From NCBI RefSeq assembly GCF_001677475.2, contig NZ_CP015229.1: 64,000 nt of DNA; one strand, 5' to 3'. This DNA is from Escherichia coli. Its GTDB lineage: Bacteria; Pseudomonadota; Gammaproteobacteria; Enterobacterales; Enterobacteriaceae. The position numbers were made by a program, and so were the translations under genes. Shown in pieces: positions 4,319 through 54,598 of the stretch; position 1 is the first letter of the stretch, and each line of letters starts with the position of its first letter. Below the pieces are notes generated by a model, which was not told where the DNA came from, ran no database searches, and saw only the letters and a program-made list of their open reading frames with translations.

Positions 4319-5342
4319 AACCCAGTACCTCTACTTTTACATGGTGTTCCTGCAGCCAGGCAATGGCGGCTTGCGTATCTTGTTGGGTGCCGTGCATTTC
4401 AGTCAGCATGATGCCGAACTTAACGCCACCGGCGTAATCCATCTGCGCGCTAATAATGTTGTTGTTGACGTTGAAACGACGCGCGGTTTCAGAAAGCAGC
4501 GGGGCATCGACCGATTGACCGGTAAACTCCAGACGCAGCATCGGCACGCAGTCAGTAAATGGCTCCGCTTGCAGACGTTCCTGGTAATCTTCCGGGATAT
4601 CCAGATGCAGGGTCGACTGAATAAACTTCTGCGCCAGCGGCGTTTTCGGATGCGAGAACACTTCACTTACCGTGTCCTGCTCGATCAGTTCGCCATTGCT
4701 GATGACCGCCACGCAATCACAAATGCGCTTCACAACGTCCATTTCGTGAGTGATCAACAGAATCGTCAAACCCAGACGGCGGTTGATGTCTTTCAGCAGT
4801 TCGAGAATAGAACGTGTCGTTGCCGGGTCCAGCGCGCTGGTGGCTTCATCACACAGCAATACTTTGGGATTGCTGGCTAACGCACGGGCAATTGCCACAC
4901 GTTGTTTCTGCCCACCGGAAAGATTCGACGGGTAGCTATCATGCTTATCGCCAAGACCAACCAATGACAGCAATTCCGTCACGCGACGTTTGATCTCGTC
5001 TTTCGGTGTGTTGTCCAGCTCCAGCGGCAGAGCCACGTTGCCAAAAACAGTACGCGAAGAGAGCAGGTTAAAATGCTGGAAAATCATACCAATCTGGCGG
5101 CGAGCTTTGGTCAACTCGGATTCTGACAGCGTGGTCAGTTCCTGGCCATCGACCAGCACGCTACCCTCGGTTGGGCGCTCCAGCAGGTTTACACAACGTA
5201 TAAGCGTACTCTTACCCGCGCCTGAGGCACCGATAACGCCATAAATTTGTCCAGCTGGCACATGCAGGCTGACGTTGTTCAACGCCTGGATGGTGCGGGT
5301 GCCCTGGTGGAACACTTTGGTGATATTCGAAAGTTTTATCAT
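4311..5342 (-). CDS. metN: D-methionine ABC transporter ATP-binding protein
   Basis: 343-aa ORF; Walker [13 protein letters not shown] signature LSGGQKQR, Walker [12 protein letters not shown]; C-terminal regulatory domain. Confidence 0.92.
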
Positions 5343-5529
5343 TGATTATTTATTATCGTCATTAAGTTAGTCGTGGCATTTCGAATGCCTGGAACGGGCA
5401 ACGCCGTCAATGAAATGGATGTTAAGGCATCCAGACGTCTAAATCAATCAGGTTTATGCGAAGAGCACTTTCTTGCAGGTCGAAACATGCGATACTAGCG
5501 TCACATGCCTTATTAAGGAGCTATAAAAG

Positions 5530-6102
5530 GTGGCGAAGAGCGTACCCGCAATTTTTCTTGACCGTGATGGCACCATTAATGTCGATCACGGCTATGTCCA
5601 TGAGATCGACAATTTTGAATTTATCGACGGTGTTATTGACGCCATGCGCGAGCTAAAAAAAATGGGCTTTGCGCTGGTGGTAGTAACCAACCAGTCTGGC
5701 ATTGCTCGCGGTAAATTTACTGAAGCGCAGTTTGAAACGCTGACCGAGTGGATGGACTGGTCGCTGGCGGACCGAGATGTCGATCTGGATGGCATCTATT
5801 ATTGCCCGCATCATCCGCAGGGTAGTGTTGAAGAGTTTCGCCAGGTCTGCGACTGCCGCAAACCACATCCGGGGATGCTTTTGTCGGCACGCGATTATTT
5901 GCATATTGATATGGCCGCTTCTTATATGGTGGGCGATAAATTAGAAGATATGCTGGCAGCGGCTGCGGCGAACGTGGGAACAAAAGTGCTGGTGCGTACG
6001 GGTAAACCTGTTACGCCTGAAGCAGAAAATGCAGCGGATTGGGTGTTAAATAGCCTGGCAGACCTGCCGCAAGCGATAAAAAAGCAGCAAAAACCGGCGT
6101 AA
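5530..6102 (+). CDS. gmhB: D-glycero-beta-D-manno-heptose-1,7-bisphosphate 7-phosphatase
   Basis: 190-aa ORF; HAD motif FLDRDGTIN; matches recalled GmhB. Confidence 0.9.
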
Positions 6103-8077: not shown

Positions 8078-8154
<77 letters not shown>

Positions 8155-8196
8155 AATTTGCACCGCAAATTTGAAGAGGTTTTAACTACATGTTAT

Positions 8197-8272
8197 GGGG
8201 CTATAGCTCAGCTGGGAGAGCGCCTGCTTTGCACGCAGGAGGTCTGCGGTTCGATCCCGCATAGCTCCACCA
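8197..8272 (+). tRNA. alaV: tRNA-Ala (TGC)
   Basis: ggggctatagctcagctgggagagcgcctgctttgcacgcaggaggtctgcggttcgatcccgcatagctccacca. Confidence 0.97.
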
Positions 8273-8455
8273 TCTCTGTAGTGATTAAATAAAAAATACT
8301 TCAGAGTGTACCTGCAAAGGTTCACTGCGAAGTTTTGCTCTTTAAAAATCTGGATCAAGCTGAAAATTGAAACACTGAACAACGAAAGTTGTTCGTGAGT
8401 CTCTCAAATTTTCGCAACACGATGATGCATCGAAAGAAACATCTTCGGGTTGTGA

Positions 8456-11359
<2,904 letters not shown>

Positions 11360-11456
11360 CAACGCCGAAGATGTTTTGGCGGATAGAGAGAAGATTTTCA
11401 GCCTGATACAGATTAAATCGACAGGTCAGAACATGACGTGTTGATAAAACAGAATT

Positions 11457-11576
11457 TGCCTGGCGGCCGTAGCGCGGTGGTCCCACCTGACCCCATGCCG
11501 AACTCAGAAGTGAAACGCCGTAGCGCCGATGGTAGTGTGGGGTCTCCCCATGCGAGAGTAGGGAACTGCCAGGCAT
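11457..11576 (+). rRNA. rrfH: 5S ribosomal RNA
   Basis: tgcctggcggccgtagcgcggtggtcccacctgacc...gggaactgccaggcat; 120 nt. Confidence 0.98.
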
Positions 11577-11628
11577 CAAATTAAGCAGTAAGCCGGTCAT
11601 AAAACCGGTGGTTGTAAAAGAATTCGGT

Positions 11629-11705
11629 GGAGCGGTAGTTCAGTCGGTTAGAATACCTGCCTGTCACGCAGGGGGTCGCGGGTTCGAGTCCCGTCCGTTC
11701 CGCCA
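11629..11705 (+). tRNA. aspU: tRNA-Asp (GTC), distal gene of rrnH
   Basis: ggagcggtagttcagtcggttagaatacctgcctgtcacgcagggggtcgcgggttcgagtcccgtccgttccgcca; identical to the aspV copy at 19852..19928. Confidence 0.97.
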
Positions 11706-18459: not shown

Positions 18460-18923
18460 ACTTCGACTTGATAGCCCGTATCTTCCAGTGTGGGATTCAT
18501 CGCTGCGGCACGAGCCAGTTCATCGCAACGTTCGTTTTCCGGGTGTCCGGCATGGCCTTTAACCCATTCCCATTTGATTTGATGCTGCCCCAACGCAGCA
18601 TCAAGACGTTGCCAGAGATCGACATTTTTTACTGGTTTTTTGTCTGCTGTTTTCCAGCCACGTTTTTTCCAGTTATGGATCCACTGGGTGATACCCTGGC
18701 GGACATACTGGCTGTCGGTACTCAAAATGACTTCGCAATGTTCTTTTAACGCCTCCAGCGCGATAATAGCGGCCATCAACTCCATACGGTTGTTGGTGGT
18801 GCGGGTGTAGCCTGCGCTAAAGGTTTTCTCGCGTCCGCGATAGCGTAAAATAGCGCCGTAACCCCCAGGTCCAGGATTGCCCAGACACGAACCATCGGTG
18901 AAAATTTCTACCTGTTTAAGCAT
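18456..18923 (-). CDS. rnhA: Ribonuclease HI
   Basis: [35 protein letters not shown]...; 155 aa from internal Met of the longer ORF. Confidence 0.93.
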
Positions 18924-19851: not shown

Positions 19852-19928
19852 GGAGCGGTAGTTCAGTCGGTTAGAATACCTGCCTGTCACGCAGGGGGTC
19901 GCGGGTTCGAGTCCCGTCCGTTCCGCCA
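19852..19928 (+). tRNA. aspV: tRNA-Asp (GTC); integration site of the downstream island
   Basis: 77-nt sequence identical to aspU; followed by a hairpin terminator. Confidence 0.97.
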
Positions 19929-19937
19929 ATATTCAGA

Positions 19938-48137: not shown

Positions 48138-52623
<4,486 letters not shown>

Positions 52624-52628
52624 TGCCG

Positions 52629-52669
52629 AAAAAAGCCGGGAACAATATTAAATCTTCCCGGCTTTTTAT
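52629..52669. terminator. Bidirectional Rho-independent terminator between rhs-immunity operon and symE-like gene
   Basis: aaaaagccgggaa…ttcccggcttttt inverted repeat with flanking A/T runs. Confidence 0.75.
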
Positions 52670-52672
52670 TAT

Positions 52673-52966
52673 TTAATTATCGTTCAGCATACTAAACATC
52701 CCGTCACGCATCCCCTTAACCGCCTGTTTGACCTGGTAAAGTTCCCTGCGCAGTTCCTGTACTTCGTTGTTATCCGCTAGCAGGATCAGGCAACCTTCCG
52801 AGATCTTCACGGTAACGCCCGTGCCGATCTCAAATCCCGCTTCTCTCAGCCATTTGGCGCTGATTTTGATCACCGGCGTGTCGCTGCGGTTGGGCAGATA
52901 GCCCACGGTACAGTGGCGCTGTGTTTTGGAAATGGTGACTTCTGGCGTAATATCGTGTTCAGCCAT
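52673..52966 (-). CDS. SymE-family (AbrB-fold) type I toxin-like protein
   Basis: 97-aa ORF; RHCTVGY…ISAKWLREAGFEIGTGVTVKISEGCLILLA parallels recalled SymE (RHVTVGY…[31 protein letters not shown]). Confidence 0.6.
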   Translation of the reverse strand: MAEHDITPEVTISKTQRHCTVGYLPNRSDTPVIKISAKWLREAGFEIGTGVTVKISEGCLILLADNNEVQELRRELYQVKQAVKGMRDGMFSMLNDN

Positions 52967-53166
52967 GATTAACTACCTTGATTAGTTGCTTGTGGTGAGC
53001 GGTGATTAAGGGGGGGGCAGCCCCAGGGAAAGATCACATAACGTTGTTTTTTGCACTAAATAATTCGCACTATATATTCAATAATTGAGTAATTCCTTAT
53101 TACTCAAAACTGTTTTTCACAGCTTATATATAATCAAATACTCCTTACATAAATAAGGAGAACAAA

Positions 53167-53610
53167 ATGGTACTTAAAAAATGATGGAGCATATTTCTAT
53201 TATCCCTGATTACAGACAAGCCTAGAAAGTGGAACATAATTTGTCAGATATTCTACTGTTGACTATTTGTGCCGTCATTTTCGGGGCTGAAGGATAGGAA
53301 GATATAGAGGATTTTGGAGAAACACATCTCGATTTTTTGAAGCAATATGGTCATTTTAAAAATGGCATCCCCGTTCACGATTCCATTGCCAGAGTTGGAT
53401 CCTGTATCAGTCCTGCAAAATTTTAACTGGATGCGTGACTGCCATTCCTCAAATGATAAAGACATTATCGCAATTGATGGAAAAACGCTCCGGCACTCTT
53501 ATGATAAGAGTCGCCGCAAGGGAGCGATTCATGTCATTAGTGCGTTCTCAACTATGCACAGTCTGAGCCTTGGGCAGATTAAGACAGATGAGAAATCCAA
53601 TGAGATTACA
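53167..53610 (+). pseudogene. yafF: Truncated, mutated ISAs1-family (H-repeat) transposase remnant, yafF-like
   Basis: Matches recalled YhhI/H-rpt N-terminus (…MEHISIIPDYRQA…ICAVI…[13 protein letters not shown]…NWMRDCHSS…[33 protein letters not shown]…[10 protein letters not shown]) but with TGG->TAG stops, frameshifts and truncation after ~150 codons. Confidence 0.8.
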
Positions 53611-53674
53611 GTGACCGCGCGTCAGTCCTTGCGGAGGGCGTCTACCCAGCCCCTTCCCTAAAAACAACGCCCAC

Positions 53675-54445
53675 TCACAGCAACCTGAACCCATCCGCGT
53701 CCTGCCATGCCGGGAATTTTTCACGATATTCTCGTAATGCCACCATCGAAAGTTCTGCATCAATGCGTGTGGCCTGGTGTGGTTCGGCGCTAGCGAGAGT
53801 TTCGCCTTGCGGATTAATCACCCGACTGTCGCCGCGATAGTGGCAGCCATTGCCATCGCTACCCACGCGATTACATCCAGCCACATACGCCTGATTTTCA
53901 ATAGCGCGAGCCGTCAGCAAAGCCTGCCAGTGCAGAGAGCGCGGGGCAGGCCAGTTGGCGACGTAGATTGCCAGGTCATAATCGTTGAAATTGCGCGACC
54001 ACACCGGAAAACGTAAGTCGTAGCACACCAGCGGCAAAATACGCCAGCCGCGCCATTCCACAATCACTCGCGCATTGCCCGCTTTATAATGCAGATGCTC
54101 ATCTGCCATGCGGAACAGATGACGCTTATCATAAAAATGTACCGTGCCGCCCGGCTCAACCAGCAAAAAGCGGTTAACCGAACCAGACTCCGTTTGTAAT
54201 GCAACACTGCCTGCAATCAGCGCATTGCACTGCTGCGCTTTAGCTGTCATCCAGTTCACTACGTCATCTTGTGCTAGCGACGAAGCTGCCGCTTCCATGG
54301 CAAAGCCGCTGGTAAACATCTCCGGTAGAACGATCACATCGCGTCCGGTAATACCTTCCAGTTGACGATCAAAATGGCGCAGGTTGGCAGGACCATCCAT
54401 CCACACCAGTGGTTGCTGTAAAAGCGTAATCTTCAAACCAGGCAC
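53675..54445 (-). CDS. yafV: Omega-amidase / nitrilase-family hydrolase YafV
   Basis: Nitrilase-superfamily motifs (…LPEMF…, CYDLRFP); GTG start at 54445 with aaggag RBS. Confidence 0.88.
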   Translation of the reverse strand: MPGLKITLLQQPLVWMDGPANLRHFDRQLEGITGRDVIVLPEMFTSGFAMEAAASSLAQDDVVNWMTAKAQQCNALIAGSVALQTESGSVNRFLLVEPGGTVHFYDKRHLFRMADEHLHYKAGNARVIVEWRGWRILPLVCYDLRFPVWSRNFNDYDLAIYVANWPAPRSLHWQALLTARAIENQAYVAGCNRVGSDGNGCHYRGDSRVINPQGETLASAEPHQATRIDAELSMVALREYREKFPAWQDADGFRLL

Positions 54446-54598
54446 GGTGTACAACTCCTTTATGCGAAGGGTTTTATAACTCTAACACCTTATCAGGCAG
54501 TTGCCTTAGCGCAGAATAAATTGATAACAAATGCTGATATTGGAAATATCTGATTTGCAAATCATCGTGTTATCGCCAGGCTTTAGGAGGTTAATAAC

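What the first reader, a model, noticed from the sequence alone, without database searches (positions are those of the whole stretch)
52673..53660. SymE-like toxin gene and decayed ISAs1 remnant form the right island boundary
The small AbrB-fold SymE homologue is convergent with the Rhs immunity gene. In K-12, symE is SOS-regulated and silenced by an antisense sRNA, but I found no CTG-N10-CAG LexA box upstream here; an antisense RNA over its 5' end is possible. The adjacent H-repeat remnant has TGG->TAG stops, frameshifts and truncation, and corresponds to K-12 yafF, so the boundary predates loss or gain of the T6SS.
Basis: partly seen in the sequence, partly recalled or inferred. Interest (0 to 1): 0.4.

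Follow-up and report, generated by a model that had tools for sequence, protein, structure and literature searches.

The report
SymE-like gene, cut SymR, IS relic
At the right edge of a type VI secretion/Rhs island sits an intact SymE-family "toxin" gene whose SymR-type antisense RNA gene has been cut by an old, decayed ISAs1 insertion sequence; all parts are known kinds, so this is an ordinary but instructive relic.

Summary
The 97-aa ORF at 52673..52966 (-) is a SymE-family protein (Pfam 55 bits, cutoff 29) but not a K-12 SymE orthologue (NCBIfam 47 bits, cutoff 132). It converges on the Rhs/putative immunity pair across a two-way terminator. No LexA box is present.

A covariance model built without K-12 or the window finds K-12 symR exactly (E 2e-9) and window 52961..53049 (+) (E 2e-9). 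The -10 box is conserved in 31/31 family loci. The pairing covaries and fits the antisense strand only.

In the window the ISAs1 left end (53024) lies 57 bp upstream of the ATG. It removes the 3' arm of SymR hairpin 2. It also takes the place of the upstream HTH gene and promoter seen in the closest E. coli relatives.

The IS remnant (53024..~53646) has two TGG>TAG stops, a frameshift, a 14-nt deletion and a 644-nt internal deletion. K-12 yafF is the non-overlapping C-terminal piece of the same insertion. K-12, E. coli N3 and the window share the IS/yafV junction.

Verdict: a known kind, probably a silenced relic. Interest is low to moderate.

The parts
48153..52295 (+). Rhs protein (1380 aa), the last T6SS-linked effector gene of the island. 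Its C-terminal tip weakly resembles the HYD1 ADP-ribosyltransferase toxin.
   Evidence: ORF. Pfam Tox-ART-HYD1 E 0.0012, 19.8 bits, below the cutoff of 25. VgrG and other T6SS genes lie upstream.
52288..52623 (+). 111-aa ORF overlapping the Rhs stop. Putative immunity gene, by position only.
   Evidence: ORF. No Pfam, NCBIfam or PADLOC hit. This segment is replaced by unrelated sequence in the same locus of metagenome contig L113.
52630..52667 (.). Bidirectional intrinsic terminator hairpin between the convergent immunity and symE-like genes.
   Evidence: 13-bp stem with U-runs on both strands. Energy -18.7 (+ strand) and -21.4 (- strand) kcal/mol, z -4.13 and -4.70, 0/200 shuffles as good.
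52673..52966 (-). Intact SymE-family gene (97 aa). A paralogue of K-12 symE.
   Evidence: Pfam PF08845 55.1 bits (cutoff 29). NCBIfam SymE equivalog 47.2 bits (cutoff 132). 92% identical to an E. coli cluster named 'SymE family toxin'. 34% identical to K-12 SymE, with the conserved VGY...WLxxAGFxxG...VKxxxGC motifs.
52926..52953 (+). Antisense (SymR-type) promoter inside the first 14 codons of symE-like: -35 TTGGAA (52926..52931), 16-nt spacer, -10 TAATAT (52948..52953).
   Evidence: The -10 lies at the same position as the K-12 symR -10 TAGAAT (CDS nt 14-19). TAnnnT is present at that position in 31 of 31 family loci found independently of the promoter, while the encoded residues vary. It was not reported by the generic scan because it matches 8/12.
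52961..53023 (+). SymR-like antisense RNA gene, truncated. The predicted start is A52961, six nt inside the CDS. Hairpin 1 (52962..52996) covers the start codon and exposes the anti-Shine-Dalgarno sequence. Only the 5' arm (53001..53012), the loop and 3 nt of the 3' arm of hairpin 2 remain.
   Evidence: Model R1 hit 52961..53049, 47.3 bits, E 2.2e-9. The same model finds annotated K-12 symR at 5836..5916 of L003, 47.6 bits. Folding drops from z -5.44 in the intact relative to z -1.06 in the window.
53024..53646 (+). Decayed ISAs1-family (ISEc1-like, 'H-repeat') element. It keeps the left inverted repeat, the left-end hairpin that sequesters the transposase Shine-Dalgarno sequence (53141..53160), transposase codons 1-153 with two TAG stops, a frameshift and a 14-nt deletion, a 644-nt internal deletion at 53611/53612, 22 nt of the 3' end (53619..53640), and a partly deleted right repeat.
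   Evidence: NCBIfam ISAs1 transposase 78 bits. The same internal deletion junction occurs in metagenome contigs L113 and L105.
53650..54454 (-). Start of conserved core DNA. yafV is at 53675..54454, followed by ivy and fadE.
   Evidence: 93.9% identical to K-12 from 53650. Up to 97.4% identical to E. coli genomes.

Best explanation
The right end of the aspV T6SS/Rhs island is a relic of a SymE/SymR-type module that an ISAs1 element disrupted long ago.

Shown:
- The 97-aa gene is an intact SymE-family paralogue.
- Its first 14 codons carry the conserved SymR-type antisense promoter.
- The + strand from 52961 encodes the first hairpin of a SymR homologue. This hairpin is complementary to the start codon and the ribosome-binding site.
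- The IS left end at 53024 removes the 3' arm of the second hairpin.
- In the closest E. coli relatives an HTH repressor gene lies 81 nt upstream in the same operon. In the window that position is taken by the IS, and no HTH gene or LexA box is present.
- The IS is the same insertion whose other fragments survive as K-12 yafF and as a near-full-length pseudogene in E. coli N3.

Inferred:
- With its operon promoter and HTH partner gone, the symE-like gene is probably transcribed weakly or not at all.
- Whatever mRNA is made would still be blocked at translation initiation by antisense transcripts, as SymR does in K-12.
- Those antisense transcripts now lack their 3' stem-loop and probably run into the IS.
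- The module is therefore most likely a silenced, slowly decaying passenger and not an SOS-inducible toxin.
- It probably reached this place as the distal flank of an Rhs tip/immunity cassette.
For: Family membership.

SymR homology:
- Alignment A2 of 24 antisense sequences folds into two hairpins.
- 97.2% of cells are paired, 10 of 12 pairs of hairpin 2 show compensatory changes, and 0/500 shuffles reach the observed score.
- Pairing is 99.0% and 95.5% canonical on the antisense strand against 72.2% and 84.0% on the mRNA strand.
- Model R1, built without K-12 or the window, finds K-12 symR at its annotated 5' end and the window at the same score.
- R1 hits 29 places in 67 loci, all ending at ATG+5 on the antisense strand.
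- The -10 box is conserved in 31/31 loci.
- Rfam's own symR model gives 50.5 bits at the predicted place in a Salmonella HTH-symE locus.

Truncation by the IS.

HTH partner in relatives: L072 (E. coli EC10) has HTH 5409..5801 and symE-like 5034..5327, and the same locus in strain HD12481 is split by ISEc1 with target duplication GCTATCTCAA.

No HTH homologue in the window. No LexA box.

Shared IS/yafV junction.

Same arrangement in other samples: metagenome contigs L113, L105, L117 and L091. The symE-like gene is frameshifted in L113 and intact in the others.

Experimental precedent in relatives: K-12 SymR (PMC1891008). Salmonella IsrA is antisense to STM0294.1n with inverse expression (PMC2330248). 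The Rfam isrA model lies antisense within SymE-family CDSs.
Against: - No expression data exist for this organism, so neither the antisense RNA nor silence of the sense gene is shown.
- The ORF is intact and 92-95% identical to relatives. This fits ongoing selection as well as recent recombination.
- yafV lies upstream on the same strand, so read-through could supply sense transcripts. Only a weak terminator-like hairpin at 53160..53141 intervenes.
- The generic promoter scan did not report the antisense promoter because it matches 8/12.
- Rfam symR does not detect the window at E<=10.
- E-values from my model are rough.
- 18 of the 24 model-building sequences (the metagenome-derived ones) were collected with a pattern that fixed promoter and 5' bases. 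The tests used loci found by protein similarity.
Confidence: 0.7

Rival explanations
1. The module is still an active type I toxin-antitoxin pair. In this view symE-like is transcribed by read-through from yafV or from a promoter in the IS left end, and the shortened SymR-like RNA remains a sufficient antitoxin. The locus would then still act as an addiction or stress module that stabilises the Rhs end of the island.
For: The ORF is intact. The antisense promoter and the whole target-pairing hairpin 1 are intact. The same junction persists in several independent samples, three of four with intact ORFs. yafV lies on the same strand upstream.
Against: No convincing sense promoter lies between 52967 and 53170. 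The only - strand match (53278..53250) lies 280 nt upstream inside the transposase region, and the region's promoter-like matches are about at chance level (6 found against 3.5 +/- 1.8 expected). The native operon promoter and HTH gene are missing. The copy at the same locus in L113 is frameshifted. Loss of hairpin 2 removes most of the RNA's predicted stability.
Confidence: 0.2
2. The symE-like gene has no function of its own here. It is kept only as the conserved outer flank (homology arm) through which Rhs tip/immunity cassettes are exchanged by recombination.
For: About half of 63 species-level loci have an Rhs core end 0.7-1.1 kb downstream on the opposite strand. Several show arrays of Rhs-fragment/symE-fragment units (L128). 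Between the window and L113 the Rhs core (96.9%) and the symE-to-yafV stretch from 52698 are homologous, while tip, immunity gene and terminator are replaced. The 97-aa and 109-aa gene types share an identical 5' end and IS junction.
Against: Family-wide conservation of protein motifs, of the antisense promoter and of the covarying RNA indicates selection on the module itself. Many family members, K-12 symE included, are not next to Rhs. Use as a recombination arm was not tested directly.
Confidence: 0.1
3. There is no antisense RNA. In this view the nucleotide conservation around the start codon only reflects translation signals and N-terminal protein sequence.
For: The Shine-Dalgarno sequence and start codon are in the conserved block. 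Rfam symR gives no hit in the window.
Against: 79 G-U pairs in hairpin 1 would be A-C mismatches on the mRNA strand (99.0% against 72.2% canonical). Hairpin 2 lies outside the coding and ribosome-binding region and covaries at 10 of 12 pairs. The model recovers the experimentally defined K-12 SymR to the nucleotide at its 5' end. The -10 box is kept in 31/31 loci while the overlapping codons change.
Confidence: 0.03

Closest known systems
E. coli K-12 symE/symR (type I toxin-antitoxin; Kawano et al. 2007, PMC1891008)
   Same: Same protein family. Both have an antisense RNA gene starting 6 nt inside the CDS. The -10 box is at the same codons. The two-hairpin RNA architecture is the same, with hairpin 1 over the start codon and ribosome-binding site.
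   Different: Only 34% protein identity, and the score is below the equivalog cutoff. No LexA box or SOS promoter. Hairpin 2 is cut by an IS. The genomic setting is the distal end of an Rhs array and not the hsd/mcr region. Rfam symR does not reach it.
HTH-SymE operons next to primase-helicase genes (described by gene neighbourhood in PMC1891008, Fig. 7)
   Same: The nearest E. coli relatives of the window gene (94% nt identity) are of this type: HTH, an 81-nt spacer, then symE-like, with divergent primase and XerC-like integrase genes.
   Different: The window has lost the HTH, primase and integrase genes. That paper proposed transcription-factor and sRNA control as alternatives. In these loci the SymR-like gene sits in the HTH-symE spacer, so both are present.
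Salmonella IsrA / STM0294.1n (PMC2330248) and Rfam isrA RF01385
   Same: IsrA is a detected RNA, antisense to the 5' part of STM0294.1n in the aspV-linked island, with inverse expression. The Rfam isrA model scores above its cutoff on the antisense strand of 109/110-aa SymE-family genes (118, 104, 91, 82 and 80 bits). It scores 31.9 bits in the window at 52803..52910.
   Different: The window is below the isrA cutoff of 51 because its 97-aa gene type lacks the 12-residue insert. IsrA is reported as 423 nt, far longer than SymR. I could not fetch LT2 itself to place its ends.
Shigella flexneri Ssr1 (PMC4782007) and Rfam RF02627
   Same: Same chromosomal position, between an Rhs gene and yafV. 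The 3' half of the 654-nt Rfam model aligns to the terminator and the antisense strand of symE-like (274 bits).
   Different: The Rfam model is the whole predicted intergenic interval. The RNA seen on the northern blot was ~150 nt with its 5' end at model position 131, in the part not conserved in the window. The hit therefore reflects symE-like homology and is not an Ssr1 gene. It is far below the cutoff of 820.
K-12 yafF and the Rhs-associated H-repeat (ISEc1, ISAs1 family; e.g. yhhI)
   Same: Same IS family, same orientation, and the same right junction with yafV.
   Different: yafF keeps codons ~286-378, while the window keeps codons 1-153 plus the last ~7. In K-12 the left break joins yafU. 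In the window the left end joins symE-like. In E. coli N3 it joins an Rhs fragment.

Membership tests
SymE family (Pfam PF08845 SymE_toxin) | Profile match at or above the curated cutoff | tested here: met
   55.1 bits against 29, E 7.9e-15, residues 16-62.
SymE proper (NCBIfam NF010128 equivalog, K-12 type) | Whole-protein score at or above 132 bits | tested here: not met
   47.2 bits. 34% identity to K-12 SymE.
SymE family | AbrB/MazE-like swapped-hairpin fold | tested here: inconclusive
symE/symR type I toxin-antitoxin | Cis-antisense RNA gene with its own promoter, overlapping the start codon and ribosome-binding site | tested here: met
   R1 hit 52961..53049, E 2.2e-9, equal to the hit on annotated K-12 symR. 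Promoter TTGGAA-16-TAATAT at the homologous position. Sequence-level evidence only.
symE/symR type I toxin-antitoxin | Complete two-hairpin SymR RNA | tested here: not met
   The 3' arm of hairpin 2 is replaced by the ISAs1 left end at 53024. Fold z -1.06 against -5.44 for an intact relative.
symE/symR type I toxin-antitoxin | LexA box / SOS-regulated sense promoter | tested here: not met
   No CTG-N10-CAG in 52601..53700. The K-12 control is positive.
symE/symR type I toxin-antitoxin | Growth inhibition by the protein and its repression by the RNA | not testable with these tools
   Needs expression experiments. K-12 SymE is reported to condense the nucleoid and not to cleave RNA (citing Thompson et al. 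2022).
Rfam symR RF01809 | Score at or above 61 bits | tested here: not met
   No hit at E<=10 in 51500..54500. K-12 control 95.3 bits.
Rfam isrA RF01385 / Ssr1 RF02627 | Score at or above the gathering cutoff (51 / 820 bits) | tested here: not met
   31.9 and 274.4 bits. Both hits are explained by homology of the symE-like CDS on the other strand.
ISAs1 family insertion sequence (ISEc1-like) | Transposase homology and terminal inverted repeat | tested here: met
   NF033564 78 bits against 70. 87% nt identity to ISEc1 positions 1-603, including the left repeat CAGGGAAAGATC.
ISAs1 family insertion sequence (ISEc1-like) | Intact transposase with DDE domain and both ends (a functional element) | tested here: not met
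   Two stops, a frameshift, a 14-nt deletion and a 644-nt deletion that removes codons ~154-368. The right repeat is partly deleted.
Same insertion as K-12 yafF | Shared IS right end and flanking sequence next to yafV | tested here: met
   Alignment A1: the transposase 3' end GCGTCAGTCCTTGCGG and the following flank are collinear in the window, K-12 and N3.
Same insertion as K-12 yafF | The retained transposase segments correspond | tested here: not met
   yafF matches codons 284-378, while the window matches codons 5-153. blastn finds no window/yafF match apart from the terminal ~22 nt.

The most novel reading that the evidence does not exclude
SymE/SymR modules, often with an HTH partner, may be the conserved distal end of mobile Rhs tip/immunity cassettes delivered by small primase-integrase elements. 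In this reading the module acts both as an addiction device and as the right-hand recombination anchor for tip replacement. ISAs1 elements would preferentially insert at the SymR terminal hairpin, disarming the module.

Observations that prompt this:
- In E. coli HD12481 and EC10, 91-nt Rhs core-end repeats flank a unit of tip, immunity, symE, HTH, primase and integrase genes.
- The right-hand homology breakpoint between the window and the related contig L113 falls inside symE-like, and the 97-aa and 109-aa gene types share an identical 5' end and IS junction.
- IS ends lie at three or more different positions within ~25 bp of hairpin 2.

None of this was tested beyond these observations.
Probability: 0.2. 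Interest if true: 0.6.

Novelty: new member of a known kind. Interest (0 to 1): 0.3.

Why it matters
For this window it settles the annotation. The right edge of the aspV T6SS/Rhs island is a SymE-family gene, a truncated SymR-type RNA gene and a decayed ISAs1 copy. K-12's yafF is the other end of that same copy, which indicates that the IS/yafV junction is older than the split of these lineages and suggests that K-12 lost sequence to the left of it by deletion.

More generally, three points follow:
- SymR-type antisense genes accompany SymE-family genes far beyond the narrow Rfam symR family, including copies that also have an HTH partner.
- Two 'island sRNA' families in Rfam (isrA, Ssr1) largely represent the antisense strand of SymE-family genes.
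- Rhs arrays in many Enterobacterales end in such a module.

These points are useful for annotation and for people studying Rhs tip exchange. They do not overturn anything.

Tried and rejected
- **Rfam on the region.** No symR hit. The Ssr1 and isrA hits looked like direct evidence for an antisense sRNA. I rejected them as such after reading the source papers and scanning related loci, because both models overlap SymE-like coding sequence.
- **K-12 yafF as the direct counterpart of the remnant.** Rejected, because the fragments do not overlap.
- **An IS in opposite orientation in Escherichia sp. E1V33 and S. flexneri (L004, L069).** This was my first reading. It was corrected to a deletion derivative in the same orientation that keeps the last 34 bp of the IS.
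- **Synonymous-site conservation profile.** Discarded as evidence, because the sequences had been collected with a pattern that fixed bases in the first 15 codons. It was replaced by the promoter count on loci found by protein search and model hits.
- **An outward sense promoter in the IS left end.** Nothing above chance.
- **A promoter upstream of the isrA model start.** None seen in five loci.
- **Structural confirmation of the AbrB fold.** Inconclusive.
- **PADLOC and PHROGs.** No entry for the SymE-like protein.
- **Exact counterpart in 5,426 complete E. coli genomes.** None has this junction. The best match covering most of the region is 87.8% identical. It was found only in metagenome contigs.
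Full report
**1. What is at the coordinates**

The window runs from the rrnH operon through dnaQ and aspV. tRNA-Ile, tRNA-Ala and tRNA-Asp lie at 8078..11705, and aspV is at 19852..19928. K-12 homology stops at 19935 and resumes at 53650.

The ~33.7 kb between these points carries T6SS genes: TssA-, TssF-, ClpV-, TssC-, TssK-, TssM- and VgrG-type proteins. It ends with an Rhs gene (48153..52295) and a 111-aa ORF (52288..52623). The Rhs tip weakly resembles the HYD1 ADP-ribosyltransferase toxin, below the Pfam cutoff. The 111-aa ORF has no family match and is called immunity by position only.

A 13-bp hairpin with U-runs on both strands (52630..52667; z -4.1 and -4.7) separates these genes from the convergent ORF 52673..52966 (-). 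The core flank (yafV-ivy-fadE) is at most 97.4% identical to any of 5,426 complete E. coli genomes. The host is therefore an Escherichia lineason at the edge of, or just outside, typical E. coli.

**2. The SymE-like gene**

The 97-aa product matches Pfam SymE_toxin above its cutoff (55.1 against 29 bits). It falls far below the NCBIfam equivalog model for K-12 SymE (47.2 against 132 bits).

It is 34% identical to K-12 SymE and shares the family motifs. It is 92% identical to an E. coli cluster and 95% identical to a copy in Escherichia sp. E1V33. Public annotation calls such proteins 'SymE family type I addiction module toxin'. It is therefore a paralogue within a populous family.

'Toxin' is an annotation. 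The K-12 record now names SymE a nucleoid-associated protein. A 2024 review reports that no RNase activity was found.

**3. No LexA box, but a SymR homologue**

No CTG-N10-CAG occurs in 52601..53700, while the K-12 control has CTGTATATATCATCAG just upstream of symE. Rfam's symR model finds K-12 symR at 95 bits but nothing in the window.

Lining up the antisense strand of many family members nevertheless shows a conserved layout:
- -35 TTGGAA
- a 16-nt spacer
- a -10 box TAnnAT
- 7 nt
- a start at the A of AGCCAT, six nt inside the CDS

This is exactly the geometry of K-12 symR.

In 31 of 31 loci that were found by protein similarity or by the RNA model, and not by the promoter, the -10 position reads TAnnnT. 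The variants are TAGAAT 19, TAATAT 6, TACAAT 3, TATGAT 2 and TAAAAT 1. The overlapping codons meanwhile encode different residues.

Twenty-four antisense sequences fold into two hairpins:
- Hairpin 1 pairs the anti-start-codon end with a downstream segment and leaves the anti-Shine-Dalgarno sequence in its loop.
- Hairpin 2 varies in sequence, and 10 of its 12 pairs show compensatory changes.

Overall 97.2% of cells pair, no shuffle out of 500 reaches the observed covariation, and sliding the partners destroys the pairing.

The pairs are canonical on the antisense strand (99.0% and 95.5%) but much less so on the mRNA strand (72.2% and 84.0%). This is because 79 + 36 G-U pairs become A-C mismatches on the mRNA strand.

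A covariance model from this alignment contains neither K-12 nor the window. It finds annotated K-12 symR from its exact 5' end (47.6 bits, E 1.9e-9) and window 52961..53049 (47.3 bits, E 2.2e-9). In 67 other loci it gives 29 hits. Every hit is on the antisense strand and ends at ATG+5, including Thalassomonas and Aquabacterium.

Rfam's own symR model gives 50.5 bits at the predicted spot in a Salmonella HTH-symE locus. Transcription in this organism remains untested.

**4. What the IS did**

The ends of ISEc1 were defined from two identical copies in E. coli HD12481: CAGGGAAAGATC... to ...TCTTGCCCTG, 1291 bp, with a 10-bp target duplication GCTATCTCAA.

In the window the left end starts at 53024, 57 bp from the symE-like ATG. 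An intact relative reads GGTGGTTAAGGG-TGGCAG-CCCTTAATCATC-GCGCT (E. coli EC10). The window reads GGTGATTAAGGG-GGGGGCAG-CCC followed by the IS. Nine of the twelve nucleotides of the 3' arm of hairpin 2 are therefore gone.

The predicted fold falls from -35.8 kcal/mol (z -5.4) in the intact relative to -23.3 kcal/mol (z -1.1) in the window.

In EC10 an HTH (Cro/cI-type) gene ends 81 nt upstream of symE-like. It is followed by divergent primase and XerC-like integrase genes. In HD12481 ISEc1 has split this HTH-symE pair.

The window has no HTH homologue. I found no sense promoter above chance between the ATG and the transposase start.

I therefore infer that the gene has lost its native transcription and protein partner, while the antisense promoter and the pairing hairpin survive.

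The same junction, with different lengths of the G-run, occurs in metagenome contigs L091, L105, L113 and L117. L113 and L105 continue into yafV and so represent the same locus. Their symE-like copies are of the 109-aa type, frameshifted in L113 and intact in L105.

**5. The ISAs1 remnant and yafF**

Window 53025..53611 matches ISEc1 positions 1-603 at 87%. It carries:
- a 1-nt deletion after codon 5
- TGG>TAG at 53223 and 53295
- a 14-nt deletion

ISEc1 positions 604-1247 are then missing, and 22 nt of the transposase 3' end follow.

Relatives show stepwise decay. The internal deletion and the second TAG are shared with L105 and L113. The 14-nt deletion is shared with L113 only. The first TAG is seen only in the window.

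K-12 yafF translates to transposase codons ~286-378. It is the complementary end and not the same piece.

The transposase 3' end and the flank up to yafV are collinear in K-12, E. coli N3 and the window. K-12 and N3 share derived changes in the right repeat, while the window has a 17-nt deletion there.

N3 keeps a near-full-length pseudogene whose left flank is an Rhs fragment, with no symE-like gene.

The left junctions differ and have probably been reshuffled by recombination among IS or Rhs copies.

**6. Wider context**

In about half of 63 species-level loci from many Enterobacterales genera, an Rhs core end lies 0.7-1.1 kb downstream of the symE-like gene on the opposite strand. These loci often show arrays of fragments.

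This association was sketched in 2007 (PMC1891008) and noted in passing elsewhere.

Only a minority of loci have an upstream HTH gene, and those still carry the SymR-like gene.

Two Rfam 'island sRNA' families overlap these genes:
- Ssr1 is the whole predicted Rhs/yafV intergenic interval of S. flexneri 301.
- isrA scores above its cutoff only on the antisense strand of 109/110-aa SymE-family CDSs.

IsrA was shown experimentally to be antisense to STM0294.1n with inverse expression. This is relevant precedent, although I could not map its ends.

**7. Verdict**

Three corrections apply: the yafF correspondence, the paralogue status of the gene, and the IS having cut the antisense gene and displaced the HTH partner.

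All components belong to known kinds, so this is a new member of a known kind.

The most likely state is a silenced, decaying SymE/SymR relic at the distal end of an Rhs cassette. My confidence is ~0.7 for the anatomy and lower for 'silenced'. Interest is 0.3.

Noticed in passing
L001 7127..15543 and L072 (E. coli HD12481 / EC10): A unit of Rhs tip (HYD1 ART), immunity gene, symE-like, HTH, primase and XerC-like integrase is bracketed by 91-nt Rhs core-end repeats that are 82% identical. It could be an integrative element that delivers Rhs tips.
   Followed up: partly
window 53024; L097, L001 8416, L004/L069 (locus coordinates near the symE-like ATG): ISAs1 ends lie at three or more different positions within ~25 bp around SymR-like hairpin 2. 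A fourth type keeps only the last 34 bp of the IS, fused to hairpin 1 through the near-repeat GCTTG(T/C)GG(T/G)GAGCGG. This may be an insertion hot spot or selection for disarming the module.
   Followed up: partly
window 52284..52936 (+) and 52803..52910 (+); L128, L105, L113, L069: The Rfam families Ssr1 (RF02627) and isrA (RF01385) largely model the antisense strand of SymE-family coding sequence. Ssr1's model is an entire predicted intergenic interval. This is a curation issue.
   Followed up: yes
L018, L031, L034, L055, L067, L072 (spacer between HTH stop and symE-like ATG): Loci with an HTH gene upstream of symE-like also carry a full SymR-like gene in the 70-90-nt spacer. Protein and RNA regulators therefore co-occur and do not replace each other.
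   Followed up: partly
window 53013..53020; L105, L113, L117, L091: The G-run left in the loop of the cut hairpin varies between samples: GGGGGGGG, GGGGGG or GGGGGTGG. This is probably slippage in a sequence no longer under constraint.
   Followed up: no
window 53141..53160: The hairpin CTCCTTACATAAATAAGGAG in the IS left end pairs the transposase Shine-Dalgarno sequence (z -5.4). This is the usual protection against translation from read-in transcripts, such as those from the SymR-like promoter. The scan also flags it as a terminator-like site on the - strand.
   Followed up: partly
window 8078..11705 and 19852..19928: There are two identical tRNA-Asp genes. The first follows tRNA-Ile/tRNA-Ala and so ends an rrn operon (aspU of rrnH by K-12 synteny, from memory). 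The second is aspV, the island's insertion site.
   Followed up: partly
L128 (Salmonella enterica contig, 3623 bp): Three successive units of a small reverse-strand ORF plus a symE-like gene (65, 77 and 110 aa), followed by a DDE transposase fragment. It is an orphan-cassette array in which symE-like copies alternate with putative immunity genes.
   Followed up: no
L129 2492..2694 (Salmonella enterica): Rfam isrK and phage-type C4 antisense RNA hits lie immediately upstream of another 97-aa symE-like gene. Their relation to the module is unknown.
   Followed up: no
window 18768..18822 (+): Weak hit of the SymR-like model (16.8 bits, E 0.041) just upstream of where the rnhA-dnaQ homology to K-12 begins (18921). 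Probably chance.
   Followed up: no
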